A stretch of 61,366 nucleotides of DNA, filler included. It is 6 parts of 6 records of this genome, joined end to end, with 100 filler letters (N's around TTAATTAATTAA, not from the genome) between each part and the next. Parts side by side here need not be neighbours in the genome. Positions count along the whole stretch, not along the records: positions 37,722 to 50,554 come from SRR2962707_1873; 5 more parts are not named here. The stretch is one strand, 5' to 3'. This document shows, one piece after another, positions 36,931 through 50,278 of this stretch. The position numbers and the translations under genes were made by a program. The notes under the pieces were generated by a model. That model was not told where the DNA came from and made no database searches. It saw only the letters and a program-made list of their open reading frames with translations. The stretch's first letter is position 1, and every line of letters starts with the position of its first letter.

Positions 36931-37621
36931 AAGTCAAGTGTTCGCCTTTTCCCTTCATTCACTGACCACATTCGTTCCACTGTGTTTTAGTGAGCACTAC
37001 ACTGGGCATAAAACCTTGCATCGTAGCGTTGAGCAGCATTAAATTATCCATTCTATAGCTCTATTTAGGATTCATTTATCTATAAATCTCTCATTATATC
37101 CTCGTTTTATGTGTCATATTAAAACTCATAAATTTGTTGCTTTCGGTAAACTACTTAAAATAGCTCAAGTTTACGCTTAAGTTACGAGAGTTCAAAGCAT
37201 TTGATCAATTTATGGTCATTGAGCCTTTTCGGGGGCAAGTGAGTGAGTGAGGGCTGTGAGTCGGTGAGTGAGTGAGCGATTGAGTGAGCGGGCCTTGGGG
37301 CTGGCCCTCTGTGAGTGGAGGTACGAGGGGTGCGCAGCGGCCACGCCCAGTCCTGGGGAGTCAAGGCCAATGGACTGAGCCAACCCCCTTGTGCGTAAAA
37401 CAGACCTCTTCTGCTCTATCTACACATTAAAATTGGTTTAGAAGTCCCTTTGTAGAGACAGAGCGCACCCTAATAGTGTGAGACGAACGACAAGGCCACA
37501 CCTCGAACCACACACGATCGTGTCAACACCCTCTCTCCGTCCACCCTCACCCTCGACTGAGCGACCTTCGCACTCTTGCCATCTATTTCGTTGTGTGTGC
37601 CCCCCCCCCCCCCCCCCCCCC

Positions 37622-37721
37622 NNNNNNNNNNNNNNNNNNNNNNNNNNNNNNNNNNNNNNNNNNNNTTAATTAATTAANNNNNNNNNNNNNNNNNNNNNNN
37701 NNNNNNNNNNNNNNNNNNNNN
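37622..37721. other. Artificial contig spacer (preceded by a poly-C run at 37600-37621)
   Basis: N-run with TTAATTAATTAA. Confidence 0.98.
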
Positions 37722-37722
37722 C

Positions 37723-38049
37723 TGGTTCGCCAACAACTTCCAGTTCTTCGGAGCGCCGGTGGCGCTGTTCTGCTACGTGCACCGCAGCATGGGTCCGCCG
37801 CAATGGTCGGACCTGGGCATGTACCTGCAATCTGTGATGCTGCTGCTGCGCGAAGCGGGTCTCGACAGTTGCCCGCAGGAGTGCTGGTCGCGCTATCCGC
37901 AAACGCTGGGGACGTTTTTCCAGGCCCCGGACGAGTGGATGCTGTTCACCGGCATGGCCATCGGTTACCGGGATGAGAGCGCCGACGTGAACCGGCTTCG
38001 CACCCAGCGGGCACGATTGGATGACATCGCGGAATTCCACGGCCTCTGA
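37723..38049 (+). CDS. Nitroreductase family protein (NfnB-like), C-terminal part
   Basis: NFQFFGAPVAL, WSDLGMYLQSVMLL, GLDSCPQ, GMAIGY. Confidence 0.85.
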   Translation, partial: WFANNFQFFGAPVALFCYVHRSMGPPQWSDLGMYLQSVMLLLREAGLDSCPQECWSRYPQTLGTFFQAPDEWMLFTGMAIGYRDESADVNRLRTQRARLDDIAEFHGL

Positions 38050-38147
38050 CTATCCCGGCGTAACCGGCGGGCCAGGGTCCGGGCCTGGCCCCGGAGCCGA
38101 CCAATCACTGATATAACAAACTGATACCGTGATCATAAGGACACCGA

Positions 38148-39386
38148 ATGTATTCCTTCAGCGACACCTCTCTACAACTCCAGGATCGGCTCGTTCGCTT
38201 CATGGACGATTATATCTATCCCAACGAACGGGCCCACGCCGAACAACTGGATCACGCCGACAACCGGTTTGCCCCGCTCCCCCTGATAGATCAATTAAAG
38301 GACAAGGCCAAGCAGGCCGGGCTATGGAATTTGTTCGTTACCCCGGAATTGAGCCACTTCGCCGACCACCCCGGACTGAGTCATTTTGATTACGCGCCTT
38401 TGGCTGAAATCATGGGCCGTGTGCTGTGGTCACCGGAGGTATTCAATTGCAATGCCCCGGATACCGGGAACATGGAAGTGTTGATGAAGTACGGCAACGC
38501 CGACCAGCAGGCAACATGGCTGACACCGCTGCTGAACGGCGACATTCGTTCCTGCTACTGCATGACCGAACCCGACACGGCGTGCTCGGATGCCACCAAC
38601 GTACAGCTGCAAATCCGGCGTGATGGCGACGAATGGGTGCTCAATGGCCGCAAGTGGTTCATCACCAACGCCTTCCATGAACGCAGCAAGATTCTTATCG
38701 TCATGGGCAAATCCGATCCCGACAACCCGAACCGGCACCAACAGCAAAGCCAGGTGCTGGTGCCCAAAGAAACGCCCGGCGTGGAGCTGGTCCGTCCGCT
38801 CAGCACCCTGGGCTACGACGACGCGCCTCTCGGCCACGCCGAGGTTCATTTCAATAATGTTCGCGTACCGCTGGGCAATATGTTGCTCGGTGAAGGACGC
38901 GGTTTCGAAATTGCCCAGGGGCGCCTGGGACCGGGCCGCATCCACCATTGCATGCGCCTGATCGGTGTCGCTCAGCGTTCTTTGGAACTGGCTTGTCAGC
39001 GTGCGGAGTCCCGTGCCACCTTCGGCCGTCCGCTCAGCCAGCATCAGTCCGTGCGCGAGGATATCGCCCGTTGTTTTTCGGAAATCGAGATGGCGCGTTT
39101 GCTCCTCCTGAAAACCTGTCGGCAGATGGATCAGCATGGTACTCAGGGAGCGCTGGATCTGATCGCCGCCAGCAAGACCACCGTGCCCCGGCTGGTGCAG
39201 AACATCATCGACCGCTGTATGCAAATCCACGGTGCCGGTGGCCTTACCGCCGATTACTGCATGGCGGAAGGCTTCAACTACGCGCGCTGGTGCCGGCTCG
39301 CCGACGGTCCCGACCAGGTTCACGAAATGACCCTGGGCAAAACCATCATCCGCCGTTACGCCGATCAGAACGGAGCGGCCTCATGA
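38148..39386 (+). CDS. Acyl-CoA dehydrogenase of the ACAD10/11-LvaC type
   Basis: PEVFNCNAPDTGNMEVL, MTEP..ACSDATN, QGRLGPGRIHHCMR, RLADGPDQVH. Confidence 0.92.
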   Translation: MYSFSDTSLQLQDRLVRFMDDYIYPNERAHAEQLDHADNRFAPLPLIDQLKDKAKQAGLWNLFVTPELSHFADHPGLSHFDYAPLAEIMGRVLWSPEVFNCNAPDTGNMEVLMKYGNADQQATWLTPLLNGDIRSCYCMTEPDTACSDATNVQLQIRRDGDEWVLNGRKWFITNAFHERSKILIVMGKSDPDNPNRHQQQSQVLVPKETPGVELVRPLSTLGYDDAPLGHAEVHFNNVRVPLGNMLLGEGRGFEIAQGRLGPGRIHHCMRLIGVAQRSLELACQRAESRATFGRPLSQHQSVREDIARCFSEIEMARLLLLKTCRQMDQHGTQGALDLIAASKTTVPRLVQNIIDRCMQIHGAGGLTADYCMAEGFNYARWCRLADGPDQVHEMTLGKTIIRRYADQNGAAS

Positions 39387-40159
39387 GCCCCGTTGCCGAT
39401 CGCTTGTCACTGAAAGGCAAGACCGCGTTGGTCACCGGCGCCTCCAGCGGTCTTGGCGCGCACTTTGCCCGGGTGCTGGCTCTGGCCGGCGCCCGCGTGG
39501 CCGTGGCCGCCCGGCGTACCAGCGCCCTGGAGCGACTGGTCAGAGAAATTGGCGATAATAACGGCGAAGCTTATGCCGTCGCCATGGACGTTACCGATCC
39601 GGCCAGCGTCACCGACGCCATTGATGGTATCGAAGCACATTGGGGAGCGGTGGATATTCTGATCAACAATGCCGGTGTGGCCGATCCCGGGCGCTTCCTC
39701 AAGATCGACCAGCCCCGTTGGGACTTTGTCATCGAAACCAATTTGAACGGCGTCTGGCGCGTGGCCCATGAAATAAGCCGGCGGCTGGTATCCCGATCCC
39801 TGCCCGGCGCCATCGTCAATGTGGCATCCATTCTCGGCCTCCGGGTCGGTATCGGACAAAGCAGCTACAGCGCGTCCAAAGCCGCGGTGATCCAACTGAC
39901 CCGGGCCATGGCACTGGAACTGGCAGAACAGGGCATCCGCGTCAACGCCCTGTGTCCCGGTTATTTCGAAACCGAGATGAACCAGGATTATTTCGCCACC
40001 GAGCAAGGCAAGCGGTATATCGGGCACACCCCCGCCGGCCGGCTCGGCCAGGTATCGGAACTGGACGCGCCATTGTTGCTGCTGTGCAGCGACGCCGGCA
40101 GTTTTGTCAACGGCGTGGCATTAGCGGTCGACGGCGGCCATCTGCTCAAATCGCTGTGA
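39383..40159 (+). CDS. SDR family NAD(P)-dependent oxidoreductase
   Basis: TGASSGLG, INNAG, YSASK; ATGA overlap with the ACAD stop. Confidence 0.92.
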   Translation: MSPVADRLSLKGKTALVTGASSGLGAHFARVLALAGARVAVAARRTSALERLVREIGDNNGEAYAVAMDVTDPASVTDAIDGIEAHWGAVDILINNAGVADPGRFLKIDQPRWDFVIETNLNGVWRVAHEISRRLVSRSLPGAIVNVASILGLRVGIGQSSYSASKAAVIQLTRAMALELAEQGIRVNALCPGYFETEMNQDYFATEQGKRYIGHTPAGRLGQVSELDAPLLLLCSDAGSFVNGVALAVDGGHLLKSL

Positions 40160-40172
40160 TCCGGGAGGCGGC

Positions 40173-41267
40173 ATGTCCAATACGATTCACACTGTTACAG
40201 AAGCGCACTTTCACGATGCGCGCAATCAGTACCCTCAGGACTGGCGGCGATTGGCAAATTATCTCCACGGCCAGGGACTGGACTTCGATAGCGATATCCC
40301 GCCCCGCCAATTCGCCACCGGTTTCGGCAACCTCAATTATCTGATTCGCCTTGATCAGCAATGGGCGGTGCTTCGCCGCCCGCCCCCGGGACCAATACCG
40401 CCTGGCGCCAATGACATGGCCCGTGAAAGTCTGATCCTGTCCCGGCTTCCAAAGGCTTACCCGCTGGCACCACGGGCCTTACATTATTGTGAGGACAGCG
40501 AGGTGCTGGGCGCCCGGTTCTTCATCATGGAATACCGGCCCGGCCTCAGCATCGGCGGGCAGATCCCGGAAACGATCCGGCAAAACTGGCGCGGCGAGGT
40601 CCCGCTGGGATCGCATCTGGGCACCCTGTTGATTCGCCTTTTGGCGGACCTGCATGCCGTTCCTCCCGAGCGTGTTGGTTTGGACCAGTTGGGCAAACCG
40701 GACGGTTTCATTCAGCGCACCCTGACCGGCTGGGTCGAGCGGGCCCGGTTGGCCTGGAGCAACCACCCGCCGGCGGATCTGATCCGGCTGATTGAATGGC
40801 TGCAACAGCGGATACCCGCGGATCAAGGTCATTGTTTTATCCACAATGATTTCAAACTCGACAACGTGCTGCTTCGTGAACACGACCTGTCACCAGTGGC
40901 GGTGATCGACTGGGACATGGGCACACGGGGCGCCCCGCTCTATGACCTGGGGGTGCTCCTCAGCTACTGGACCGAGCGCGACGACCCGCCCTGTATGCAC
41001 GCCCTGAATCAAATGCCCACCGCCGGTGACGGCTTCCCCGGCCGCGAACAAGCCGCCACTCTCTACCAGAATCTGACCGGGACCACACTGACGTCCCTGA
41101 CTTATTTCCGGGTACTGGCACTACTGCGCAGTGCCGTGGTGTTTCAGCAGATATGCCAGCGCAAAACTCTGAACGGAGAAGACAACGACTCCGGCGTTGA
41201 GTTCGGGCAACTCGCCCGGGAATTGTGTTCATTCGCCCTGGACGTTAGCCGGGGCCGGTATTTTTAA
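40173..41267 (+). CDS. APH-family phosphotransferase (ACAD10/11 kinase-domain / LvaA-like)
   Basis: VLRRPPPGP...ANDMARE, HNDFKLDN catalytic loop, AVIDWDM..GAPLYDLG. Confidence 0.9.
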   Translation: MSNTIHTVTEAHFHDARNQYPQDWRRLANYLHGQGLDFDSDIPPRQFATGFGNLNYLIRLDQQWAVLRRPPPGPIPPGANDMARESLILSRLPKAYPLAPRALHYCEDSEVLGARFFIMEYRPGLSIGGQIPETIRQNWRGEVPLGSHLGTLLIRLLADLHAVPPERVGLDQLGKPDGFIQRTLTGWVERARLAWSNHPPADLIRLIEWLQQRIPADQGHCFIHNDFKLDNVLLREHDLSPVAVIDWDMGTRGAPLYDLGVLLSYWTERDDPPCMHALNQMPTAGDGFPGREQAATLYQNLTGTTLTSLTYFRVLALLRSAVVFQQICQRKTLNGEDNDSGVEFGQLARELCSFALDVSRGRYF

Positions 41268-41285
41268 GTGAGAAGGAGCAGGCCG

Positions 41286-42884
41286 ATGCAACGCATGCCG
41301 ATGAATAACTACGAAAAAACCCACTCCCAATTCGAATGGCAGCTTCCCGACCATTTCAACTTCGGCGGCGATGTGGTCGACTACTGGGCACGTACGCCGG
41401 AAAAAACCGCTTTGATCTGGACCAATCAACACGGCCAGGAACAGATCTACAGCTTCGCCGACATTAAACGTCTCACCAACCAGTTCGCCAATGTGCTTGC
41501 CTCCCACGGCGTAAAAAAGGGCGACCGCGTGCTGGTGGTGCTGCCCCGGTTGCCCCATTGGCAGATCGCCATGGTCGGCTGCAACAAACTGGGCGCCATA
41601 CCGATTCCTTGTGTCACCATGCTCACCGAGAAGGACATCCGCTACCGCCGCGAGCATTCCGGCGCCATCGCCGCGATCACCACGGCGGAGCATACCGCCA
41701 AGTTCGGAGATCATTTCAAAGTCCGCATCAGTGTTGGCGAAGCAGAGGGCTGGCTTGATTTTGATCAGGCCGTAGCCACGGCCGCCGAGGATTTTTCGCC
41801 CGTCCCTCTGCGCATGACGGACCCCGCCATCCTGTTCTATACGTCCGGCTCCACCGGCATGCCCAAAGGGGTGTTGCACTCCAGTGCGGCCCTGTTCAGT
41901 TGGCGCGTATCGGCCTGGTACTGGCTGTCGCTCAACCAGGATGATTTGATGTGGTGCACCGCCGACACCGGCTGGAGCAAAGCCGGCACCAGCATTCTTT
42001 ATGGTCCCTGGAGCTGCGGCAGCGCCGTCCTGTTCCACGACGGTCCATTCGACCCGGACTCACGACTGGCACTGCTGGAACGGTATCAGGTCAGCGTTTT
42101 CTGCGCGTCCGCCACCGAACTGCGCCGTCTTCTGCTCGAGGATATAACAAACCGGGACCTGAACCGGCTGCGCTTGACGGTCTCCGCCGGGGAGGCGGTA
42201 AACCCGGACATCGTGCACGCCTGGCGTGACGGCACCGGCGCTCAGTTGCTGGATGGTTATGGCCAGACCGAGACCCTGATGACGGTATTGAATTATCCGT
42301 CCATGCCGGTCAGACCGGGTTCCATGGGGCGGCCTCTGCCCGGCGTGGAAGCGGCCATTCTTGGCGAACAGGACCGGTTACTGCCACCGGGCAAAATCGG
42401 CCGTCTGGCAATCAAGACGCCCAACCCGCAAATCATGCTCGGCTACTATAAAGATGAGGAGCGAAGCGCCAGCAGTTATGTGGAGGCCAATGGAGAACGC
42501 TGGTTCATCACCGGTGACAACGCACATATGGACGAAGACGGCTACATTTATTACGAGGGACGCGGTGACGATGTCATCAACTCCGCGGGTTACCGCATTG
42601 GTCCGGTGGAAGTGGAAAACGCTTTACTGGAACACCCGGCCATCCATGAATGCGCCGTCGCCGCCAGCCCTGATCCGGATCGTGGTGAAGTGGTGAAAGC
42701 CTTTATCATTCTGTCACCAGGCTATCAGGCCAGCGACGAGTTGGCGCGGGAGATTCAAACTTTCGTCAAGGCACTCACCGCGCCTTATAAATACCCTCGC
42801 AAAATCGCCTTCGTGGAGGATCTGCCCAAGACCGCCACCGGCAAGATACAGCGCCGCCTGCTCAAACAAGCGGAATTTGCCTGA
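41286..42884 (+). CDS. Medium-chain acyl-CoA synthetase (AMP-forming)
   Basis: YTSGSTGMPKG, DGYGQTET, GRGDDVINSAGYRIGP, PYKYPR, LPKTATGK; AAGGAG RBS. Confidence 0.92.
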   Translation: MQRMPMNNYEKTHSQFEWQLPDHFNFGGDVVDYWARTPEKTALIWTNQHGQEQIYSFADIKRLTNQFANVLASHGVKKGDRVLVVLPRLPHWQIAMVGCNKLGAIPIPCVTMLTEKDIRYRREHSGAIAAITTAEHTAKFGDHFKVRISVGEAEGWLDFDQAVATAAEDFSPVPLRMTDPAILFYTSGSTGMPKGVLHSSAALFSWRVSAWYWLSLNQDDLMWCTADTGWSKAGTSILYGPWSCGSAVLFHDGPFDPDSRLALLERYQVSVFCASATELRRLLLEDITNRDLNRLRLTVSAGEAVNPDIVHAWRDGTGAQLLDGYGQTETLMTVLNYPSMPVRPGSMGRPLPGVEAAILGEQDRLLPPGKIGRLAIKTPNPQIMLGYYKDEERSASSYVEANGERWFITGDNAHMDEDGYIYYEGRGDDVINSAGYRIGPVEVENALLEHPAIHECAVAASPDPDRGEVVKAFIILSPGYQASDELAREIQTFVKALTAPYKYPRKIAFVEDLPKTATGKIQRRLLKQAEFA

Positions 42885-42891
42885 CCCGTTC

Positions 42892-42913
42892 CCCTCCCCG
42901 GCCCGGGGGAGGG
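42892..42913. terminator. Hairpin between the convergent operons
   Basis: CCCTCCCC...GGGGAGGG stem. Confidence 0.55.
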
Positions 42914-42931
42914 AGAACAGGAGCCCTCTCT

Positions 42932-43636
42932 TCAACCGCCCAGATACAATTCCTTGAGTTCCGGCCGCTGACTGATTTCGGCGGAGTCGCCTTCCAATCC
43001 AATGCGGCCATTCTCCAGCACATAGGAATAGTCGGATATCTTGATCGCCATATGGGCGTTCTGTTCCACCAGCAGAATAGCGGTGCCGGCCTTATTGATC
43101 CGCTTGAGAATCTCAAAAATCTCCATCACCAGCTTCGGCGCGATGCCCAGCGAAGGCTCGTCCAGCAGCAACAGCCTGGGCCTGCCCATCAATGAACGGC
43201 CAATGGCCAGCATTTGCTGTTCACCGCCGCTCAGCGTCGCCGCCTTTTGTTGCATACGCTCCTTCAGGCGCGGGAAATAGCCGAACACCGTCTCCATGTC
43301 TTCGTCGACATCCTTGTTGCCAATACGGCGGTAGGCGCCTACACGTAGATTTTCCTCCACGGTGAACTGCGGAAAAACCCGCCGCCCCTCGGGGCAATGA
43401 ATGACGCCATTCTTGACCAGGTCGCCGCAGGATCGTCCCTGCACGGATTCTCCGTTCAACCGCACGTCGCCGCTTTGCGGAGCACACAAGCCGGAAATCA
43501 CCTTCAAGGTGCTCGACTTGCCGGCGCCATTGGCGCCCAGTAATGAGACGATCCGCCCTTCAGGAACCTCCAGGGAAATACCCCGCAAGGCATGCACCCG
43601 CCCGTAGTACAGGCAGACATCATCAAGCTTCAACAT
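42932..43636 (-). CDS. Liv-type ABC transporter ATPase (LivF-like)
   Basis: GANGAGKSS, PEGRRVF, LSGGEQQMLAIGR, LLVEQNA. Confidence 0.93.
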   Translation of the reverse strand: MLKLDDVCLYYGRVHALRGISLEVPEGRIVSLLGANGAGKSSTLKVISGLCAPQSGDVRLNGESVQGRSCGDLVKNGVIHCPEGRRVFPQFTVEENLRVGAYRRIGNKDVDEDMETVFGYFPRLKERMQQKAATLSGGEQQMLAIGRSLMGRPRLLLLDEPSLGIAPKLVMEIFEILKRINKAGTAILLVEQNAHMAIKISDYSYVLENGRIGLEGDSAEISQRPELKELYLGG

Positions 43637-44393
43637 CGTCCACCTCCCCAAGATAGGCCTCGATCACCGCCGGGTCGTTCTGGATCGCCGACGGGCTCCC
43701 TTCGGCGATCTTTTCACCGAAATTCATTACCGTGATGCGATCGGATATGTCCATTACCAACGACATGTCATGCTCAATCAACAATACCGAAATCCCCATA
43801 TCATCGCGCAGTTTTCGGATCAGTCGGGAAAGACCTCCGGTTTCGGAGGTGTTCATTCCCGCCACCGGTTCATCCAGCAGTATCAGCCGGGGCTCGACCA
43901 TAACCGCCCGGCCGATATCCACCATCTTCTGGTACCCATACGGCAGGTTTTCAACACGTTCATTGGCGCAGTGAGACAGGCCGAACATCTCCAGCACGGC
44001 GTCCGCCTTTCGGCGGGCCTCCGCTTCCGTACGCCGGATAGAGGGGAGGTTGAAACAAATTTTCAGAAGATTGTGATTCAACCGGGAATGCAGGCCGGTG
44101 AGCAAGTTGTCCATGACCGTCATTTTCGAGAACAGCTCCACGTTCTGAAAGCTGCGGGCAATACCCTGGCCAATAATCTGATGAGGGTTAAGCCGTCCCA
44201 GGTCAGTGCCTTCGAAGCTGATCGATCCGGACGCCGGCGTATAGAACCGGCTGATACAGTTGAACACCGTGGTCTTGCCGGCCCCGTTAGGCCCGATGAT
44301 GGAATGGATGCTTCCCTTTTCCACCCGCAAGGACAGCTCGGACACGGCGGTAAGACCAGAGAAACGGACCGTCAGGCGATCGAAACTAAGCAT
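43623..44393 (-). CDS. Liv-type ABC transporter ATPase (LivG-like)
   Basis: GPNGAGKTT, LPYGYQK, LLDEPVAGMN, VIEAYLG. Confidence 0.93.
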   Translation of the reverse strand: MLSFDRLTVRFSGLTAVSELSLRVEKGSIHSIIGPNGAGKTTVFNCISRFYTPASGSISFEGTDLGRLNPHQIIGQGIARSFQNVELFSKMTVMDNLLTGLHSRLNHNLLKICFNLPSIRRTEAEARRKADAVLEMFGLSHCANERVENLPYGYQKMVDIGRAVMVEPRLILLDEPVAGMNTSETGGLSRLIRKLRDDMGISVLLIEHDMSLVMDISDRITVMNFGEKIAEGSPSAIQNDPAVIEAYLGEVDDVEA

Positions 44394-45387
44394 TGTCGGC
44401 CTCCTCGAAATCCTGCCCTGGTACCTTTTCCACAGGTGTCTCACCGGACGGACGCTGTTTCCTCCGCTGGAAGAACTCACCCAGTGAAACAAGCCCGGCC
44501 GGACGGAACAGAATCACCAGCACCACGGCCAACCCGATGACCAAATTGGTGACACCGACGTAAGCATCGGAGAAGTGAGGAATCCCGGTAAACAGGACAG
44601 CGCCCAGAATGGCGCCCCATATCGACGCCAAACCACCTACCACGATCATCGCCAACAGGAAGAAGGAGGCCATGATGGTGAAGTCATTCGGGCTTATGTA
44701 TTGAATCCAATAGGCATACAGACCGCCGGCCAGGCCGGTGAAGAAGGCGCTGATCATGAACATGACGGTCTTGTAGCCGGCAACATTGATACCGGTGGCC
44801 GCGGCGGCGATTTCACTGTCCCGGATCGCCAGGAATGCCCGCCCGAGCCGGCTGTTGGCGATATTCATCAGCACCCAGGTCACCAGGAAAGTCAGCATCA
44901 GAATGACATAAAAGAACGTCAGGTCATCGGATGCCCATTCCGGGCGCATCAAAGGCAGGCCCGAATAGCCTCCCGTCACCGACTTCCAATTCAACGCAAT
45001 TTCCGGAATGGACAATCCAAACCCCAGCGTTGCCACCGCCAGAAAATGGCCTTTCAGACGGACCGCCGGCAGCCCGATCACCAGACTCACCAGCGCGGCA
45101 ATGACGCCCGCCGACGGCAAGGCCAACCAGATCGGCAAGCCGAAAGTCGTTGACAGAACGCCAGTTGAATACGTCCCCATCATCAAGAAGCCGCCTTGAC
45201 CTATGGACACTTGGCCGCCGTAACCGGTTAACAGGTTCAAGGACATGGCGGCAATGGCATAAATCGCCATGGTGACCACCAGTCCCATGAAGTACGAGGA
45301 CTGACCGACCAGAAATGGAAATGCCAGCAAAACCAGTACAAGCAGGGATACAAACCACCGCCGATCAAATACTTTTTTCATTGTCAC
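44386..45387 (-). CDS. Liv-type ABC transporter permease (LivM-like)
   Basis: GYGGQVSIGQ, RLKGHFLAVATL, GRAFLAIRDSE, multiple TM helices. Confidence 0.92.
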   Translation of the reverse strand: MTMKKVFDRRWFVSLLVLVLLAFPFLVGQSSYFMGLVVTMAIYAIAAMSLNLLTGYGGQVSIGQGGFLMMGTYSTGVLSTTFGLPIWLALPSAGVIAALVSLVIGLPAVRLKGHFLAVATLGFGLSIPEIALNWKSVTGGYSGLPLMRPEWASDDLTFFYVILMLTFLVTWVLMNIANSRLGRAFLAIRDSEIAAAATGINVAGYKTVMFMISAFFTGLAGGLYAYWIQYISPNDFTIMASFFLLAMIVVGGLASIWGAILGAVLFTGIPHFSDAYVGVTNLVIGLAVVLVILFRPAGLVSLGEFFQRRKQRPSGETPVEKVPGQDFEEADNA

Positions 45388-46253
45388 ACCTTCTTCATGG
45401 TCGGGGCGTCACCGAAGATACCCTGCGGGCGGATATAAAGAACCGCGACGATTAGTGCGAAGGTGCAAACCAGAGCCATTTCCGGCGCCCAGTAGTAACT
45501 CACCAGATTGCCGAATACGCCGATCATAAGTCCGCCGATCACCGCCCCGGGCAAGCTCATGAATCCGGCCAGCACGGCTGCCGCGAAGGCCATGATCAGC
45601 ACATTGAACATCATCGACACCCCGAGGAACGTGAAGGGCGCCGTCAACAGGCCGGCAATGCCGCCCAACACGGAACCCGCGGCCCAGGTCGCCAGAAATA
45701 CGGCATTGACATTGATACCCATAAGCCGCGCCGCCACCAGATCCTGCGAAGAGGCTCTCATCGCCAGCCCCACCCGAGTGTAGCGAAACAGGACAAAGAG
45801 AATCATGGAGAGCAGGAAGGTGATCACCAACACAAAGATTTCGTTGGGCGTGATGAAGACACCGGCGATGGAGAAGGATTTACCTTCCACCGCCTTGGGG
45901 AAACTGGTGGGGGTGTGGCCCCAAATCAGTCCCGCCGCGCCATGTATGGCGAGAAACACACCCAGTGTCATCACCAGCTGATTAAGATGGGATGCCTGAC
46001 TGACATGACGTATCAGCACCCAGAACACCGCGATGCCAAAAAACGCCGAGAACGCAATGGCGGCGAGAAACGCCCCATAGTAGGGTAATTCAAAGTTTGT
46101 CAGTAATGAGAACGCCACGAACGAGCTGACCATGGCCATCTCGCCATGAGCAAAGTTGACCAGACCGGTGGTTCTGAAAATCAGCACCAGGCCAAGCGCC
46201 GCGAGCCCATAGACACAGCCGAAGATCAGGCCGCTTACTACGATCTGTCCCAT
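45384..46253 (-). CDS. Liv-type ABC transporter permease (LivH-like)
   Basis: VNFAHGE, GLAMRASSQD, RPQGIFG. Confidence 0.92.
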   Translation of the reverse strand: MGQIVVSGLIFGCVYGLAALGLVLIFRTTGLVNFAHGEMAMVSSFVAFSLLTNFELPYYGAFLAAIAFSAFFGIAVFWVLIRHVSQASHLNQLVMTLGVFLAIHGAAGLIWGHTPTSFPKAVEGKSFSIAGVFITPNEIFVLVITFLLSMILFVLFRYTRVGLAMRASSQDLVAARLMGINVNAVFLATWAAGSVLGGIAGLLTAPFTFLGVSMMFNVLIMAFAAAVLAGFMSLPGAVIGGLMIGVFGNLVSYYWAPEMALVCTFALIVAVLYIRPQGIFGDAPTMKKV

Positions 46254-46346
46254 GCGGACATACCTCCCGAGATGTTTTTCTTCTTAATGCGGCCCCACTA
46301 TCAGCCGAGGCAGAGCGGGGCCGCCTACTGCGAGCGACACTGTTCT

Positions 46347-47579
46347 TCAACCGCCGCTGATCTGCCCCGTCACCGGATCAAAGGTGATCGGCTTGGAAAT
46401 CGGAACAATATGCCCATCCTTGGCTTCGGTGATGAACATGGAGGTCAGTCCATAATGGTTATGTTCGGAAAAGCTGACCCCGGCGTACATGGAACCGGTC
46501 CAGTTATCGAACGAATCGAAAGCGCTCAGGAAATCATCCCAGCTCAGTGTCTCGCTACGTCTCAACGCCTCAACCAGCACCTCCGCCGCGGCCCACCCGG
46601 TTTGTCCCCAGTCGGCAAGCGCCACTTTCGGGTAGTCCTTGCCAAACTGTTCTATGTACTGCTTGATGCTTTCGTCGTCGCTTTGATCCGGCTTGGGTAA
46701 AACCGCGCTGGAAATGGTGCCGTTCCATACCTCCTTCCCGGCCAGGTCGAACATCGTTTCAGAGTCACCGCCAACCGAGGACACCAGGAAGGCCGGCTCG
46801 GACAATCCGATGTTATAAAGCGCTTTTTTCAGCTGCGCCGCTGGAGCCGGCGTTGAGAAGGCCAGGATAGCGTCCGGATCAGCCTGGCGAATACGCTGGG
46901 CCTGAGTACTCAGATCGGAATCCGCGGCCTGGAAATTCACTTCACCGACCAGCTCCACGTCCTGATACTCCTTCAACGCTTCCTTGGCGGCCTCCGCCAG
47001 CGGGCTCCCGTAGTCGTCGTTCTGGTAAGCAACAACCACCCGCTTCGCCTTCAGAGTCGTGGCAATATAGTTGGTCAGAACCCGGGCTTCGAATTCATAA
47101 TTGGCCAGGCTGGAACCCATATAGTTGGCAATAGGCGGATCGACGAACTGCTTGGAGCCGGAGCTGGTCATCAGCATGGGAATACCACTGCGTTCATTGA
47201 ACCGCCGGGTCGCCACATTGCAGGGAGTACACACATTGCCAAGCATGGCGTACACCTTGTCCTCATCCACCAGACGCTTGGTCAACTGTACCGTCCGGCC
47301 AGGCTGATACTGGTCGTCATAGGCGATCAACCGCAGTTTTCGCCCCTTCACTCCGCCATTCTCGTTGACGTGGTTGAAGTAGGACTGGATACCCATTCGG
47401 ATTTTATCGTAAGCCGCCACCGGTCCGGTCTGCGGGCCAAGATGACCGATGCGGATTTCCGTATCGGTGACACCCTGCGGGGCATCGAGATCATCAGCCC
47501 ATGCCGGCGGCGCCGCGAACAAGGCCGCCAGCGAGGCTGCTGTCGCCCATTTTTTCCAGTTCTTTTTGATCAGAAACAT
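46347..47579 (-). CDS. Liv-type ABC transporter substrate-binding protein
   Basis: Signal peptide, GVTDTEIRIG, NENGGVKGRKL..DDQY (PBP1 fold). Confidence 0.9.
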   Translation of the reverse strand: MFLIKKNWKKWATAASLAALFAAPPAWADDLDAPQGVTDTEIRIGHLGPQTGPVAAYDKIRMGIQSYFNHVNENGGVKGRKLRLIAYDDQYQPGRTVQLTKRLVDEDKVYAMLGNVCTPCNVATRRFNERSGIPMLMTSSGSKQFVDPPIANYMGSSLANYEFEARVLTNYIATTLKAKRVVVAYQNDDYGSPLAEAAKEALKEYQDVELVGEVNFQAADSDLSTQAQRIRQADPDAILAFSTPAPAAQLKKALYNIGLSEPAFLVSSVGGDSETMFDLAGKEVWNGTISSAVLPKPDQSDDESIKQYIEQFGKDYPKVALADWGQTGWAAAEVLVEALRRSETLSWDDFLSAFDSFDNWTGSMYAGVSFSEHNHYGLTSMFITEAKDGHIVPISKPITFDPVTGQISGG

Positions 47580-47628
47580 GATTCATCACCTTTGTTTTAC
47601 TAATAACGTCATTATTCGTGGACGCCGC

Positions 47629-48801
47629 TCAATAGGCGGCGTTGAGAATGGCGACAATGTCCTCCCGGGTGCGTATCGGCCGGGGATTGGTATTGACCCA
47701 GATATTGCCCATGGCGCCTTCCGCCACCGACTCGAAGCAACCCGGATCAACCTCCAGTTCCCGCAGCCGGACAGGCAGTCCCAGATCTTTGATCAGAGTT
47801 TCCACGGCGCTAACCGCGTCGCCGTCGGTACGCCCCATAGATGCCGCGACTCGTTTCTGGCGGGCGCGGTTTTCCCCTTGTCCACGATTCCAGCGCAGTA
47901 CCGCCGGCAGCAATACACAGGAGGTATAGCCGTGACTGAGACCGGTGACCGCACCGAGGCTGTGACCGATACCGTGGCTGGCGCCATAATCGACCCGCAA
48001 GATGCCCTGGGAGGCCAGCCAGGCGCCCTGCTGAGCCCGCAGCCGTGCGTCCAGATCCTCGGGCGCACGCCGATTACGAGGCAAGGCTTCACTTAGAAGC
48101 GACAGTGCGTGCAAGGCGCAGGCATCCACCAGTGGCGCCGGCGAACGGCTGCAGAGGGATTCCACCGCATGATCCAGTGCGCGGATCCCGGTTGATAGCC
48201 AAAGTCGTTCAGGCGTTGGCAAGGTGACGGCCGGGTCCATGATTACCGTGGCGGGGCATAAAGCGGCGCCATGGTAACCGTCCTTGACATGCCGCCGCTC
48301 ATCCACGGCGCCGCCCAGACAGGAAAACTCGGCACCGGACAGGGTGGTAGGGACCGCGATCTGACGAATTGGCGGCGCCCGCAAATCAGGAATCCGCCGC
48401 TCACCCGAGGCATCAACGGTTATGTGGCAGCGATCCAGTCCCGTCACGTCAACCACGTTTTCCGCCAGAGCCACCAAAACCACCTTGGCGGTGTCGATGA
48501 CTGTTCCACCGCCCACGGATAGGATCAGATCCGGTCCGGCGCGCCGTATCGCGGCGGCGGCCTCGATCACCGTTTGGCGGGGCGTATGCTCACGGCAGCC
48601 GTCGAATACGCCAACACTTTTTCCGCCCAGAGCCTGTCTGATACCGTCAACCACCGGCGTCGCTCTGTTCAACGTTCTGCCGGTAATGATGAAAACACGC
48701 TCGGCACCAAGACGCGCCACTTCGGCACGTACCGCCTCCCCGGCGGGAACACCCCAGACAACACGGTCCTGGGCAATATACTGGTACCAACCTGAATCCA
48801 T
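47629..48801 (-). CDS. Iron-containing alcohol dehydrogenase family (maleylacetate-reductase/hydroxyacid-dehydrogenase-like)
   Basis: GGGTVIDTAK, PTTLSGAE, DHAVE, SHGIGH..G..HG metal ligands; start MDSGW at 48801. Confidence 0.88.
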   Translation of the reverse strand: MDSGWYQYIAQDRVVWGVPAGEAVRAEVARLGAERVFIITGRTLNRATPVVDGIRQALGGKSVGVFDGCREHTPRQTVIEAAAAIRRAGPDLILSVGGGTVIDTAKVVLVALAENVVDVTGLDRCHITVDASGERRIPDLRAPPIRQIAVPTTLSGAEFSCLGGAVDERRHVKDGYHGAALCPATVIMDPAVTLPTPERLWLSTGIRALDHAVESLCSRSPAPLVDACALHALSLLSEALPRNRRAPEDLDARLRAQQGAWLASQGILRVDYGASHGIGHSLGAVTGLSHGYTSCVLLPAVLRWNRGQGENRARQKRVAASMGRTDGDAVSAVETLIKDLGLPVRLRELEVDPGCFESVAEGAMGNIWVNTNPRPIRTREDIVAILNAAY

Positions 48802-49253
48802 ATCCGCCTCACTCCGAAACCGACGGCAACGTCCCTCACCGTATTCGCACCACAAAGCCGGCCTCCCATTGCTTCATTGCAGAACGGAAGGTCCGCTTTT
48901 TTTATCGAAAAAATAGAGTTAAATTGGATTAGCGCGCCCGCTTCCGGCAAGCGCGACCACGCCGGTCAAACCGGGAAAAGGCACGCTTCATAAAGTGTGA
49001 ATTCACAAGGGAAGAGCTGGCGACATCAATGGCACCCCAATTTTTCCGATAAGCGCGAGAGGCGCCTGCGTGCTTATTCGGCACGGGTATAAGGGTTTTG
49101 AGAGGATTTCCGGTATTCATTTTTGCATCCAACCTGCCATTGATTTCACGCTTATGCTTTTTGGAAGAGTAGTAATCGCGGCAGGCGGGCTCAAATCACT
49201 TTTTGAAATACGCCATCATTTTCATCAAAAATACATCAAATAAAGACAGAACC

Positions 49254-50168
49254 ATGAGACTGAACCGCATAGATCTGAACTTGTTCGTTGTCTTTGAAGC
49301 GCTATACCGCGAGCGCCGTGTGACCAAGGTCGCGCGCCATTTGAATATTACCCAGTCCGGGGTAAGCAACGCGCTGCGGCGGCTGCGCGAGACCTTTGAT
49401 GACCCTCTCTTTGTACGTGGTTCCGAAGGGATGGTGCCCACGCCGGTGGCGGAAAATATGATCGTGGATGTGCGCCAGGCTCTGGACCTGCTCAGCCGCA
49501 GTGTGGGAGAAAATCTACGTTTTCAACCGGAGCTTTCAGAAAGGGAATTCCGCCTTGGCATGAATGATCTGGGGCAGGCTCTGATACTTCCCGGGCTACG
49601 CGAGAAATTACGTGAGCAGGCCCCTAAAGTGGCGCTCAGCACCTATTACGTGGATCGCCGTATCGGCGAGGAGGACCTTAAATCCGGCGGCCTGGATTTA
49701 TTGATCGATGCACCGGACATCAACGCCCTGGAGTTGGACCAGGCGTTCCTTGCCGAATTGCCTTACGTCGTTACCATGCGCCACGGCCATCCGTTGGCGA
49801 AGGGCCCGCTGTCCCTGCAATGTTATCTCGGCGCCGACCATATTCACGTCTCAAGCCGCAAGCGCGGCCGCGGACAAGTGGATGTGGCCCTGCACGCTCT
49901 CGGGGAGCAGCGTCATATCTCCATGCGCGTTCAGAACTACCTGGTGGCGGCGAACATCACCGCGGAAAGCGACCTTTTATGGACGGTACCGAGAATGCTG
50001 GCGGAAACCACCGGCCTGTATATCACCGAGGCGCCGCTCAAGGTGCCGCCTTTATTCTGGAATCTCTATTGGCCGAAAAGCGTGACCATGGACCCGGCAA
50101 GCCGATGGATGCGGCAGCTGATCATGAGCCAGTTTGCCGAGAGCTGCTCCCGACTGTTGCCAGATTGA
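49254..50168 (+). CDS. LysR-family regulator (NodD/DntR-like subgroup)
   Basis: DLNLFVVFEAL...TQSGVSNALRRLR..FDDPLF HTH; divergent from the Fe-ADH/ABC operon. Confidence 0.93.
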   Translation: MRLNRIDLNLFVVFEALYRERRVTKVARHLNITQSGVSNALRRLRETFDDPLFVRGSEGMVPTPVAENMIVDVRQALDLLSRSVGENLRFQPELSEREFRLGMNDLGQALILPGLREKLREQAPKVALSTYYVDRRIGEEDLKSGGLDLLIDAPDINALELDQAFLAELPYVVTMRHGHPLAKGPLSLQCYLGADHIHVSSRKRGRGQVDVALHALGEQRHISMRVQNYLVAANITAESDLLWTVPRMLAETTGLYITEAPLKVPPLFWNLYWPKSVTMDPASRWMRQLIMSQFAESCSRLLPD

Positions 50169-50278
50169 CGGCCCTCCCGCCGTTTGACGGGGACGCCGGT
50201 CCGCTCCGTCGATACGGCAAGTGCTGACATCAGAGCCACGCCGTACACTGCGCCTCCCTATTTACGGAGGCTTGTTTC

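What the first reader, a model, noticed from the sequence alone, without database searches (positions are those of the whole stretch)
38148..42884. lva-like phosphorylation/elimination pathway for an unknown 4-oxo/4-hydroxy acid
Seen: four tightly linked co-oriented genes (ATGA overlap, then 13-nt and 18-nt gaps) encoding an ACAD10/11-type dehydrogenase (NCNAPDTGNME, DGPDQVH), an SDR, an APH kinase (HNDFKLDN) and an acyl-CoA synthetase. Known: the same four enzyme types form the Pseudomonas putida levulinate pathway (LvaC, LvaD, LvaA, LvaE), and mammalian ACAD10/11 fuse the kinase and ACAD to degrade 4-hydroxyacyl-CoAs via 4-phosphoacyl-CoA. Differences here: gene order, no visible small lvaB gene, an ACSM-type ligase, a LysR rather than sigma54 regulator nearby, and GPDQVH where the family usually has GPDEVH. 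Inference: an uncharacterised variant for another gamma-oxygenated acid, possibly an oxidised lipid or hydrocarbon product, in an Alcanivorax-like host.
Basis: partly seen in the sequence, partly recalled or inferred. Interest (0 to 1): 0.7.

Follow-up and report, generated by a model that had tools for sequence, protein, structure and literature searches.

The report
Lva-like 4-hydroxyacid breakdown operon in Alloalcanivorax
Four tightly linked genes in an oil-degrading marine bacterium most likely feed a short or medium-chain 4-oxo or 4-hydroxy acid into fatty-acid breakdown by phosphorylating it and then removing the phosphate, a route already known from Pseudomonas and mammals, here built from an unusual mix of parts.

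Summary
On one 12.8-kb contig (37722-50554 of a six-contig concatenate), four co-oriented genes encode an ACAD10/11-type acyl-CoA dehydrogenase, an SDR, an APH-fold kinase and an ACSM-type acyl-CoA synthetase, with an ATGA overlap and 13- and 18-nt gaps. The ACAD keeps the catalytic Asp and the Arg/His/Arg phosphate-binding helix of ACAD11. The kinase keeps the catalytic Asp and two family-invariant Arg, one aligned with ACAD11's CoA-contacting R176. The source is Alloalcanivorax xenomutans (99% kinase identity).

The best reading is an lva-like route: CoA ligation, keto reduction, 4-OH phosphorylation, phosphate elimination to an enoyl-CoA. The substrate is unknown, and the pathway is inferred by homology.

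New here:
- The kinase, the ACS, a nearby Fe-alcohol dehydrogenase and a nitroreductase-like gene have their nearest sampled relatives in modules of Cupriavidus, Rhizorhabdus, Bradyrhizobium and Sphingobium. Those modules use a different ACAD class (32-35% identical).
- GPDQVH is common in the ACAD's own clade (114 of 120), not a lesion.
- There is no room for lvaB.
- The LysR gene belongs to the neighbouring Fe-ADH/ABC operon.

Lva protein sequences and the genomes of close relatives could not be fetched. Verdict: a new variant of a known kind, of moderate interest.

The parts
37723..38049 (+). 3' part (108 codons) of a nitroreductase-family gene, cut by the contig end
   Evidence: Pfam PF00881, E 1.2e-07. 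It is 36% identical to a full-length nitroreductase-family gene that follows the ACS in the Rhizorhabdus wittichii pDC02 module (L081).
38069..38098 (+). GC-rich inverted repeats between the nitroreductase-like gene and the ACAD; a possible terminator, so the operon may have its own promoter
   Evidence: I1: 8 nt, 100% complementary; I2: 9 nt, 89%. No sigma-54-like site on the + strand here.
38148..39386 (+). ACAD10/ACAD11/LvaC-type acyl-CoA dehydrogenase (412 aa), predicted 4-phosphoacyl-CoA phosphate eliminase
   Evidence: Pfam. PDB: 2wbi 3.8e-117 and 8v3u 1.7e-114, against 1.4e-38 for the best ordinary ACAD. QGRLGPGRIHHCMR and LADGPDQVH align with ACAD11 R626/H634/R637 and D753. It lies in class A of the ACAD tree (SH-aLRT 99).
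39383..40159 (+). Classical SDR (258 aa), predicted 4-oxoacyl-CoA reductase (LvaD-like role, inferred)
   Evidence: adh_short, E 2.1e-60. ATGA overlap with the ACAD. The nearest relatives share contig lengths with the ACAD's relatives four times.
40173..41267 (+). APH-fold small-molecule kinase (364 aa), predicted 4-hydroxyacyl-CoA 4-kinase
   Evidence: PF01636, E 1.3e-40. PDB: 9o56 3.9e-57; ACAD11 kinase domain 2.2e-31. H224/D226/N231, D246-W247 and R84/E85/R182 are invariant in 60 relatives. It belongs to clade K1 of the kinase tree (SH-aLRT 100).
41286..42884 (+). ACSM/MacS-type acyl-CoA synthetase (532 aa)
   Evidence: AMP-binding, E 8.6e-75. PDB: 3etc 1.7e-120; ACSM2A 1.9e-108; 4-hydroxybutyrate-CoA ligase 5.9e-95. 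It is 52-65% identical to the ACS of six K1 modules.
42890..42914 (.). GC-rich imperfect inverted repeat between the convergent operons; a likely two-way terminator
   Evidence: Read from the sequence. The terminator scan did not list it (no T run).
42932..47579 (-). LivFGMH-type ABC transporter with a Peripla_BP_6 binding protein (five genes); possible uptake system for the substrate
   Evidence: Pfam and NCBIfam. A Peripla_BP_6 binding protein also flanks the Cupriavidus module (L082; Pfam) and its 57%-identical counterpart flanks the Bradyrhizobium module (L006). The link is at family level only: 22% identity to the window's protein.
47629..48855 (-). Iron-containing alcohol dehydrogenase, first gene of the convergent operon
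   Evidence: Pfam Fe-ADH. Best NCBIfam model is 4-hydroxybutyrate dehydrogenase, 172 bits against a cut-off of 500. Homologues 40-50% identical lie beside K1 modules in L006, L082 and L084.
49049..49077 (.). Inverted repeat ATAAGCGCG-N11-CGTGCTTAT in the Fe-ADH/LysR divergent region; looks like a LysR box
   Evidence: I9. That this is the LysR T-N11-A type is recalled knowledge.
49203..50168 (+). LysR-family regulator, divergent from the Fe-ADH/ABC operon
   Evidence: HTH_1 + LysR_substrate. BsrA-like, 224.5 bits against a cut-off of 480.

Best explanation
The four genes form one operon of Alloalcanivorax xenomutans. It probably brings a short or medium-chain gamma-oxo or gamma-hydroxy carboxylic acid into beta-oxidation by the CoA-dependent phosphorylation-elimination route known from the Pseudomonas putida lva operon and from mammalian ACAD10/11.

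Steps (all inferred by homology; none assayed):
1. The ACSM-type ligase makes the acyl-CoA.
2. The SDR reduces a 4-oxoacyl-CoA to the 4-hydroxyacyl-CoA. This step is skipped if the substrate is already a 4-hydroxy acid.
3. The APH-fold kinase phosphorylates the 4-OH of the CoA thioester.
4. The ACAD10/11-type flavoenzyme eliminates phosphate to give 2-enoyl-CoA (or 3-hydroxyacyl-CoA), which enters ordinary beta-oxidation.

The neighbouring Fe-alcohol dehydrogenase, Liv-type ABC transporter and LysR regulator probably serve the same substrate family (uptake, and oxidation of an alcohol precursor).

The cluster is a mosaic. Its kinase, ligase, Fe-ADH and nitroreductase-like gene are nearest to a widespread proteobacterial module (called K1 here) that normally carries a different ACAD class. 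The ACAD here is of the ACAD10/11/LvaC class.
For: Operon structure: ATGA overlap, 13- and 18-nt gaps with ribosome-binding sites, and an inverted repeat after the last gene.

ACAD:
- ACAD11 structures score about 1e-115; the best ordinary ACAD scores 1.4e-38.
- The catalytic Asp (the D753 position, which is the D-to-N change in the 8v3v mutant chain) and the R626/H634/R637 positions are identical. The roles of these residues come from passages of PMC12440821.

Kinase:
- It matches the ACAD11 kinase domain at 2.2e-31.
- D226 aligns with catalytic D220, N231 with N225, and R182 with the CoA-contacting R176. R84 sits next to the alpha-C Glu. All are invariant in 60 relatives.
- It matches no NCBIfam model.

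Linkage elsewhere:
- 29 of 43 fully flanked relatives' loci have a hallmark ACAD within 5 kb. 14 also have an SDR. 6 have ACAD, SDR and ACS together.
- Some modules add enoyl-CoA hydratase, thiolase and 3-hydroxyacyl-CoA dehydrogenase genes (L081, L002).

Known chemistry: LvaA/LvaC, ACAD10/11 and a Burkholderia kinase/ACAD pair convert 4-hydroxyacyl-CoA through 4-phosphoacyl-CoA to enoyl-CoA. The Burkholderia kinase and ACAD each replaced the matching ACAD10 part; lvaB is not mentioned in the text (passages of PMC11342911).

Mosaic:
- The kinase lies in clade K1 (SH-aLRT 100).
- All 10 sampled K1-type loci that have a full-length adjacent ACAD have class C, 32-35% identical to the window's.
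- The window's ACAD lies in class A (SH-aLRT 99).
- ACS is 52-65% identical in 6 of those 10 loci, and Fe-ADH 40-50% in 3 of them.
Against: - No enzyme was assayed, and the substrate is unknown.
- The closest relatives' loci (A. balearicus, Maricurvus) were not fetched. Conservation of this exact four-gene order rests on weak contig-length coincidences.
- 14 of the 43 fully flanked kinase loci have no hallmark ACAD nearby. These include three K1 members in unrelated contexts.
- A bioRxiv preprint reports that ACAD10-type kinases, prokaryotic ones included, phosphorylate 1-O-alkylglycerols (passages of 10.1101/2025.09.10.675409). The best structural match of this kinase (9o56) is probably the bacterial kinase crystallised in that work.
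- The SDR could be a 3-hydroxyacyl-CoA dehydrogenase rather than a 4-oxo reductase.
- The Fe-ADH/ABC operon is convergent, not co-transcribed.
Confidence: 0.7

Rival explanations
1. It is simply the levulinate operon. The proteins are true orthologues of LvaC, LvaD, LvaA and LvaE, and the substrate is levulinate or 4-hydroxyvalerate. Only the gene order differs, and lvaB has been lost.
For: The same four enzyme families are present. The ACAD is in the ACAD10/11 class; LvaC is reported as 56-62% identical to those ACAD domains (PMC11342911). P. citronellolis also lacks lvaB and uses a divergent ligase (passages of PMC6692424). The ligase's relatives are short- and medium-chain enzymes.
Against: No LvaF/G-type permease and no sigma-54 regulator lie on the contig. 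The associated genes are different: Fe-ADH, ABC transporter, nitroreductase-like. The kinase belongs to a long-stemmed clade whose other sampled members pair with another ACAD class. Orthology with the Lva proteins could not be tested.
Confidence: 0.15
2. The pathway takes 4-hydroxy acids only. The SDR is not a 4-oxoacyl-CoA reductase but a downstream 3-hydroxyacyl-CoA dehydrogenase, or acts on another alcohol.
For: The best SDR matches are generic: PRK06949 at 250.9 bits is below its cut-off of 358, and the next PDB matches are FabG-type enzymes. ACAD10/11 and the Burkholderia pair act on 4-hydroxyacyl-CoA without a reductase. SDR types vary among related modules.
Against: An SDR lies within 5 kb of the kinase and a hallmark ACAD in 14 of 43 fully flanked loci. 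It overlaps the ACAD stop codon here. In the lva operon the SDR (LvaD) is the 4-oxo reductase (PMC6692424 passages). L081 and L002 carry a separate 3-hydroxyacyl-CoA dehydrogenase gene besides this SDR type.
Confidence: 0.25
3. The kinase phosphorylates a lipid alcohol that is not a CoA thioester, such as a 1-O-alkylglycerol. Its place beside the ACAD reflects a different, unknown pathway.
For: The preprint 10.1101/2025.09.10.675409 (passages) reports this activity for ACAD10/11 kinase domains and several prokaryotic homologues, stimulated by acetyl-CoA. The window kinase's best solved relative, 9o56 (E 3.9e-57), fits the residue numbering of that paper's bacterial structure (N219, D234, E236).
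Against: The kinase sits in an operon with an acyl-CoA ligase and a phosphate-binding ACAD. One invariant Arg aligns with the CoA-contacting R176 of ACAD11 and another sits beside the alpha-C Glu. No ether-lipid genes lie on the contig.
Confidence: 0.07
4. This is ordinary beta-oxidation genes with an unrelated (for example antibiotic) kinase placed beside them by chance.
For: APH is the aminoglycoside phosphotransferase fold.
Against: The kinase matches no NCBIfam model. The hallmark residues are present in both proteins. Kinase-ACAD linkage recurs in 29 of 43 loci from many phyla.
Confidence: 0.03

Closest known systems
Pseudomonas putida KT2440 lva operon (lvaR, lvaABCDEFG; Rand et al. 2017, known here only through passages of PMC6692424, PMC11342911 and PMC12440821)
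   Same: It has a kinase, an ACAD10/11-class ACAD, an SDR and a medium-chain acyl-CoA ligase in one operon. The predicted chemistry is the same: acyl-CoA, then 4-hydroxyacyl-CoA, then 4-phosphoacyl-CoA, then enoyl- or 3-hydroxyacyl-CoA.
   Different: The order here is C-D-A-E instead of A-B-C-D-E. There is no room for the 12-kDa LvaB. There is no acetate-permease-type LvaF/G; a Liv-type ABC system lies nearby instead. No sigma-54 regulator is on the contig. An Fe-ADH and a nitroreductase-like gene are associated. Sequence relationship to LvaA, D and E is untested.
Mammalian ACAD10 and ACAD11 (PMC12440821; PMC11342911; PDB 2wbi, 8v3u, 8v3v)
   Same: The ACAD matches at about 1e-115, with identical catalytic Asp and Arg/His/Arg phosphate site. 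The kinase matches the N-terminal kinase domain at 2.2e-31, with the catalytic residues and the R176-equivalent Arg.
   Different: Here the kinase and the ACAD are separate proteins with an SDR gene between them. There is no HAD domain. The ACAD has Gln instead of Glu three residues after the catalytic Asp. The kinase has DWD instead of DWE.
Burkholderia pseudomallei kinase/ACAD pair Q63VL0/Q63VL1 (PMC11342911, passages)
   Same: It is a stand-alone bacterial kinase plus ACAD, shown in vitro to convert 4-hydroxyhexanoyl-CoA. The text does not mention an LvaB partner.
   Different: Related bacterial kinases, of which this pair was chosen as closer to ACAD10 than Lva, are reported as up to 51% identical to the ACAD10 kinase domain. 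The window kinase is far more distant from the ACAD10/11 kinases (112 bits to ACAD11) and lies in a separate clade. No direct comparison was possible.
Pseudomonas citronellolis LA18T lva cluster (PMC6692424, passages)
   Same: It is an lva-like cluster that lacks lvaB and uses a ligase (LvaE2) only 35% identical to LvaE. Both lvaB and the ligase type are therefore variable.
   Different: It keeps the sigma-54 LvaR and an ActP-type permease, and has a histidine phosphatase gene. None of these is seen here.
Uncharacterised 'K1' modules on Cupriavidus oxalaticus, Cupriavidus sp. P-10 and Rhizorhabdus wittichii pDC02 replicons and in Bradyrhizobium, Sphingobium, Alcaligenaceae and Solimonas genomes (L082, L084, L081, L006, L018, L011, L002)
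   Same: They hold the nearest sampled relatives of the kinase (45-53%), ACS (52-65%), Fe-ADH (40-50%) and nitroreductase-like gene (36%). A Peripla_BP_6 binding protein is nearby. SDRs of the same type occur in L002 and L081.
   Different: Their ACAD is class C: 32-35% identical, with LTHCMR and DGPSEVH, in a separate clade with SH-aLRT 98. Several add a CaiB-type CoA-transferase and a GntR/FCD regulator. The order is kinase-ACAD-SDR. I found no description of these modules in print (searches).

Membership tests
ACAD10/ACAD11/LvaC-type ACADs (4-phosphoacyl-CoA eliminases) | Much closer in sequence to ACAD10/11 than to other ACAD subfamilies | tested here: met
   2wbi 3.8e-117, 8v3u 1.7e-114 and 4hr3 1.7e-113, against 1.4e-38 for the best other ACAD. 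Class A clade, SH-aLRT 99.
ACAD10/ACAD11/LvaC-type ACADs (4-phosphoacyl-CoA eliminases) | Catalytic Asp (mouse ACAD11 D753) in place of the usual catalytic Glu | tested here: met
   LADGPDQVH aligns with RLADGPDEVH. The same position is N in the inactive-mutant chain 8v3v.
ACAD10/ACAD11/LvaC-type ACADs (4-phosphoacyl-CoA eliminases) | Arg/His/Arg helix that binds the 4-phosphate (R626, H634, R637) | tested here: met
   QGRLGPGRIHHCMR is identical to ACAD11 over these positions. Residue roles are from PMC12440821 passages.
ACAD10/ACAD11/LvaC-type ACADs (4-phosphoacyl-CoA eliminases) | Phosphate elimination from 4-phosphoacyl-CoA without an external electron acceptor | not testable with these tools
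   This needs an enzyme assay.
LvaA / ACAD10-11 kinase-domain family (4-hydroxyacyl-CoA kinases, APH fold) | APH fold with catalytic HxDxxxxN and a DW[DE] metal-binding motif | tested here: met
   PF01636, E 1.3e-40. H224, D226, N231, D246 and W247 are invariant in 60 relatives. D226 aligns with ACAD11 D220. The motif is DWD, not DWE.
LvaA / ACAD10-11 kinase-domain family (4-hydroxyacyl-CoA kinases, APH fold) | Arg residues that contact the CoA moiety (ACAD11 R176 and the Arg beside the alpha-C Glu) | tested here: met
   R182 aligns with R176. R84-E85 form the DMxRE motif. Both are invariant. My count of the second Arg does not match the paper's number (R86), so that mapping is by position next to the Glu only.
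LvaA / ACAD10-11 kinase-domain family (4-hydroxyacyl-CoA kinases, APH fold) | Encoded beside, or fused to, a hallmark ACAD | tested here: met
   Same operon, 787 nt apart. 29 of 43 fully flanked relatives' loci show the same linkage.
LvaA / ACAD10-11 kinase-domain family (4-hydroxyacyl-CoA kinases, APH fold) | Orthology with P. putida LvaA in a tree | not tested
   The LvaA sequence could not be obtained. Rand et al. 2017 is not held, and the one genome scan did not return Pseudomonas putida.
lva operon (P. putida lvaR-lvaABCDEFG) | Small LvaB protein encoded next to the kinase and required with it | tested here: not met
   The gaps inside the cluster are -4, 13 and 18 nt. The flanks are 98 and 47 nt. 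Elsewhere in the genome was not testable.
lva operon (P. putida lvaR-lvaABCDEFG) | Sigma-54 activator LvaR adjacent, with a sigma-54 promoter | tested here: inconclusive
   None is on the contig, and no good TGGCAC-N5-TTGC site lies upstream (97 matches against 89.8 expected). The contig ends 426 nt upstream of the ACAD start.
lva operon (P. putida lvaR-lvaABCDEFG) | LvaF/LvaG (DUF485 + ActP-type permease) as the transporter | tested here: not met
   The neighbouring transporter is a LivFGMH/Peripla_BP_6 ABC system.
lva operon (P. putida lvaR-lvaABCDEFG) | SDR (LvaD) and acyl-CoA ligase (LvaE) in the operon | tested here: met
   Met at family level only. Orthology was not tested.
K1 kinase module (defined here) | Kinase in the long-stemmed clade K1, with the related ACS | tested here: met
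   Kinase tree: SH-aLRT 100, stem 0.81. ACS 52-65% identical in L006, L011, L018, L081, L082 and L084.
K1 kinase module (defined here) | Class C ACAD (LTHCMR, DGPSEVH) next to the kinase | tested here: not met
   The window's ACAD is class A. All 10 other sampled K1-type loci with a full-length adjacent ACAD have class C.

The most novel reading that the evidence does not exclude
The K1 kinase, ACSM-type ligase, Fe-alcohol dehydrogenase and SDR form the core of an uncharacterised, widespread proteobacterial pathway for one particular gamma-oxygenated acid or its alcohol or lactone precursor. One example would be 4-hydroxybutyrate or 1,4-diols, converted to crotonyl-CoA by phosphorylation and elimination instead of by the oxygen-sensitive radical 4-hydroxybutyryl-CoA dehydratase. 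In marine Gammaproteobacteria such as Alloalcanivorax, the module's own class C eliminase was replaced by a fast-evolving branch of the ACAD10/11 class (stem 0.75, mostly Gln after the catalytic Asp). That would show the two ACAD classes are functionally interchangeable.
Probability: 0.15. Interest if true: 0.6.

Novelty: new variant of a known kind. Interest (0 to 1): 0.35.

Why it matters
The phosphorylation-elimination route for 4-hydroxy acids was found only in 2017 in one Pseudomonas and in 2024-25 in mammals. The natural substrates of its many bacterial relatives are unknown. This cluster shows the route in a marine hydrocarbon degrader, without LvaB and with different uptake and regulation.

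The comparison also shows that hallmark ACADs linked to these kinases fall into three classes, and that kinase and ACAD classes can be recombined. That gives concrete, cheap experiments on substrate range and on which partner sets specificity. It may also supply parts for engineering levulinate, gamma-valerolactone or 4-hydroxy-acid use. It does not change the known mechanism.

Tried and rejected
- Direct trees with LvaA/C/D/E and ACAD10/11 were not possible. Rand et al. 2017 (PMC5705400) is not held.
- The listing of cluster members was meant to link neighbouring proteins through accession numbers.
- As a substitute I compared the 'longest contig' lengths across the three protein searches. 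This gave a few coincidences only: 72946 (kinase/ACAD); 526663 (kinase/SDR, A. balearicus); 4124, 2675, 11176 and 4255 (ACAD/SDR). I treat these as weak evidence. A further coincidence (1894, from different sources) was dismissed as chance.
- A search for the PDB code 9O56 in papers found nothing relevant. Its identity is inferred from residue numbering only.
- A sigma-54 promoter scan gave chance-level matches. The sigma-70/terminator scan was also at chance level.
- Searches for a published description of the K1/class C module found none. A search on Alcanivorax xenomutans with the enzyme names found nothing specific.
- The idea that GPDQVH marks a damaged or unique enzyme is rejected: 114 of 120 close relatives share Q.
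- The idea that the LysR gene regulates the four genes is set aside on position.
- The contexts of three K1 kinases without an ACAD (L001, L003, L004) showed no common theme.
- The SDR tree is poorly resolved, with many long branches. I use it only for one split.
- No structure prediction, fold search or complex prediction was run, because sequence matches to solved structures were already decisive.
- Supplements of the cited papers were not opened. They may hold alignments of LvaA/LvaC with bacterial relatives that bear on orthology.

Full report
**1. What the window is**

The 61,366-base window is not one stretch of genome. Five N44-TTAATTAATTAA-N44 linkers join six contigs. The finding lies in the fifth contig, 37722-50554, so only those 12.8 kb are valid context.

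The kinase is 99% identical to a protein named from Alloalcanivorax xenomutans and 78% to one from A. balearicus.

**2. The observation**

ORF listing and translation give four co-oriented genes:
- ACAD, 38148-39386
- SDR, 39383-40159
- kinase, 40173-41267
- ACS, 41286-42884

The junctions are as described. There is an ATGA overlap, a 13-nt gap with GGGAGG and an 18-nt gap with GAAGGAG. A GC-rich inverted repeat follows the last stop codon, before a convergent operon.

Pfam assigns the three ACAD domains, adh_short, APH and AMP-binding with its C-terminal domain. Only one curated NCBIfam cut-off is reached, and only just: the broad SDR subfamily model PRK07231 scores 216.3 bits against a cut-off of 215. 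The kinase matches no NCBIfam model at all.

**3. The ACAD**

Against solved structures, the best matches are human and mouse ACAD11 (2wbi 3.8e-117; 8v3u 1.7e-114) and a mycobacterial relative (4hr3 1.7e-113). The best ordinary ACAD scores 1.4e-38.

In the printed alignments, the segment QGRLGPGRIHHCMR is identical to ACAD11. It covers the positions that PMC12440821 (passages) names R626, H634 and R637, the residues that hold the 4-phosphate. The chain numbering is one lower than the paper's.

The Asp of LADGPDQVH aligns with catalytic D753. The inactive-mutant chain 8v3v carries N at exactly that position.

It lies three residues after the catalytic Asp.
- All 41 hallmark ACADs found beside related kinases have Glu there.
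- Among the 120 closest relatives of this ACAD (74-95% identical; Halieaceae, Colwellia and unnamed marine sequences), 114 have Gln and 6 have Glu.
- Gln is therefore the usual state in this clade and varies within it. It is not a lesion.
- An ordinary ACAD in the sample also has Gln at the aligned position (L067).

**4. The kinase**

The best solved match is 9o56 (E 3.9e-57). Next come the kinase domain of ACAD11 (2.2e-31) and 3dxp (8.2e-29).

The motif numbering of 9o56 in the alignment (N219, D234-W-E236) fits the Caldalkalibacillus thermarum kinase described in the preprint 10.1101/2025.09.10.675409 (passages). This identification is my inference.

The following alignments hold:
- Window D226 aligns with ACAD11 D220. 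That position is Ala in the kinase-dead chain 8v3u.
- N231 aligns with N225.
- R182 aligns with the CoA-contacting R176.
- R84-E85 form the Arg-Glu pair of the alpha-C helix.
- All of these, with D246-W247, are invariant in an alignment of 60 relatives.

The family is large. 2,723 representatives at 50% clustering score E <= 1e-10.

**5. The ligase and the SDR**

The ligase is closest to the Methanosarcina medium-chain enzyme 3etc (1.7e-120), to ACSM2A (1.9e-108) and, further off, to a 4-hydroxybutyrate-CoA ligase (5.9e-95). Its best NCBIfam models are MbcS and a short-chain ligase, both below cut-off. This points to a short or medium-chain acid.

The SDR is a classical one with generic best matches.

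**6. Related loci**

Of 600 matched stretches it kept the best 80, with 33-48% identity. The closest relatives were therefore missed.

I called ORFs in the 80 loci and compared them with the window's proteins.
- Of the 43 loci with at least 5 kb on both sides of the kinase, 29 have an ACAD with the hallmark motifs within 5 kb.
- 17 have an SDR and 11 have an ACS.
- 14 have ACAD plus SDR.
- 6 have all three.

Kinase-ACAD linkage is therefore the rule across many phyla. The full four-gene set is a recurrent subset.

**7. Three ACAD classes and a mosaic**

The 41 hallmark ACADs fall into three groups by identity to the window's ACAD:
- class A: 46-54% identical, 16 loci
- class B: 36-41%, 18 loci
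- class C: 32-35%, 7 loci

In a tree rooted on three ordinary ACADs, class C (SH-aLRT 98) and class A (99) are clades. The window's ACAD and its close relatives sit inside class A on a long stem (0.75; support 100). All three classes keep the Asp and the Arg...His...Arg pattern.

In the kinase tree (100 rows, quick search), the window's kinase lies in a clade with support 100 and a stem of 0.81. I call this clade K1. It holds:
- the 20 best database hits;
- four loci without a full adjacent ACAD;
- all seven kinases that sit beside class C ACADs.

Every kinase linked to a class A or class B ACAD lies outside K1.

A protein search of the plasmid collection added annotated examples.
- Rhizorhabdus wittichii pDC02 (L081): kinase 53%, class C ACAD 34%, ACS 65%, a nitroreductase-family gene 36% identical to the truncated gene at 37723-38049, and an SDR at 46%. 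It also carries enoyl-CoA hydratase, thiolase and 3-hydroxyacyl-CoA dehydrogenase genes.
- Cupriavidus oxalaticus (L082) and Cupriavidus sp. P-10 (L084): the order in L082 is binding protein, kinase (47-48%), class C ACAD (33%), SDR, CaiB-type CoA-transferase, ACS (59-60%), Fe-ADH (49-50%); L084 shows the same kinase-to-Fe-ADH genes, while its binding protein and CaiB were not checked.
- Bradyrhizobium (L006): Fe-ADH at 40% and ACS at 52%.
- Sphingobium (L018) and an Alcaligenaceae genome (L011): ACS at 53-54% and the CaiB gene.

In total, 10 sampled K1-type loci have a full-length adjacent ACAD, and in all 10 it is class C. The window is the only sampled case of a K1 kinase with a class A ACAD.

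One weak pointer suggests it is not alone. Kinase P0003 (59%; sister group of the Alloalcanivorax kinases) and ACAD P0319 (76%) are both reported from a contig of 72,946 bases.

The SDR's close relatives share contig lengths with the ACAD's relatives four times: 4124, 2675, 11176 and 4255. This suggests that ACAD and SDR travel as a pair. In the poorly resolved SDR tree, the window's SDR type also occurs in the K1 modules of Solimonas and Rhizorhabdus.

**8. Surroundings**

A six-gene operon converges on the four genes. It encodes an Fe-ADH, a Peripla_BP_6 binding protein and LivH/M/G/F-type components.

The LysR gene is divergent from this operon. An inverted repeat, ATAAGCGCG-N11-CGTGCTTAT, lies between them. 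The LysR protein is therefore placed to control the Fe-ADH/ABC operon, not the four genes.

Because Fe-ADH homologues and binding proteins of the same family recur beside K1 modules, a functional link with the four genes is plausible. It is not shown. The binding proteins are only 22% identical.

No sigma-54-type site stands out upstream of the ACAD. The contig ends 426 nt upstream of the ACAD start.

**9. Mechanism**

By homology with LvaE/D/A/C and with ACAD10/11, the proposed steps are:
1. ligation to CoA;
2. reduction of a 4-oxo group by the SDR, if one is present;
3. phosphorylation of the 4-OH of the thioester;
4. FAD-dependent elimination of phosphate to 2-enoyl-CoA.

The basis is passages of PMC6692424, PMC11342911 and PMC12440821.

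LvaB is not needed in principle. The Burkholderia kinase and ACAD each replaced the matching ACAD10 part in vitro, and the text of PMC11342911 never mentions lvaB. P. citronellolis also lacks lvaB.

What is shown here is the presence, linkage and residue conservation of the parts. All activities and the substrate are inferred.

Rival readings are scored separately:
- plain levulinate orthologue;
- 4-hydroxy acids only, with the SDR acting downstream;
- kinase acting on alkylglycerol-like lipids, as in the preprint;
- chance neighbours.

**10. Novelty and limits**

The chemistry and the kinase-ACAD pairing are known, so this is not a new kind of system. It is a variant: different gene order, no lvaB, different transporter and regulator, extra Fe-ADH and nitroreductase-like genes, and a K1 kinase combined with a class A ACAD.

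I found no paper that describes the K1/class C modules (searches). I found none on this cluster in Alcanivorax.

Limits:
- No Lva sequences.
- No loci of the closest relatives.
- Quick trees only, with SH-aLRT support.
- Closed metagenome and viral collections.
- Supplements not read.

Noticed in passing
window 17036-17135, 22308-22407, 28991-29090, 37622-37721, 50555-50654: Five N44-TTAATTAATTAA-N44 linkers. The window is six contigs of a draft assembly strung together, so genes on either side of a linker are not neighbours.
   Followed up: yes
window 17136-37621 (three contigs): GC content is 45-55%, against 57-63% in the other contigs. A 31-base run of C precedes the linker at 37591-37621. 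Four of six long ORFs tested there have no Pfam match. These contigs may come from another organism or be contamination.
   Followed up: partly
window 20389-21357 (+), beside 17311-18555 (+): A second APH-family kinase gene (PF01636, E 3.8e-31) lies on a low-GC contig, near a saccharopine-dehydrogenase-like gene. Its relation to the kinase of the finding was not examined.
   Followed up: no
L082 7692-16125; L084 8914-16087; L081 2280-11527; L006 8585-16986; L011 9929-16572; L018 5338-12969: A conserved, apparently undescribed module occurs in Alpha-, Beta- and Gammaproteobacteria, partly on large plasmids. It holds a K1 kinase, a class C hallmark ACAD (LTHCMR, DGPSEVH), an SDR, often a CaiB-type CoA-transferase, an ACSM-type ligase, sometimes an Fe-ADH, a GntR/FCD regulator and a Peripla_BP_6 binding protein.
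   Followed up: partly
L049 1-2483 (Marinobacter MAG): It has the same ACAD-SDR-kinase order as the window, with a class A-like ACAD fragment (50%). Its kinase is only 37% identical and lies outside clade K1.
   Followed up: partly
L083 5676-10513 (Acinetobacter baumannii record filed as a plasmid, 3.97 Mb): A LysR gene lies divergent from a class A ACAD (46%) followed by a kinase (34%) and an SDR. The record is chromosome-sized and almost unannotated.
   Followed up: no
window 49049-49077: An inverted repeat, ATAAGCGCG-N11-CGTGCTTAT, lies between the divergent LysR and Fe-ADH genes. It is a candidate LysR binding site.
   Followed up: partly
window ACAD clade (P0271-P0390): The window's ACAD and its marine relatives sit on a long stem (0.75 changes per column) inside the ACAD10/11 class. 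This hints at a shift in substrate or partner.
   Followed up: partly
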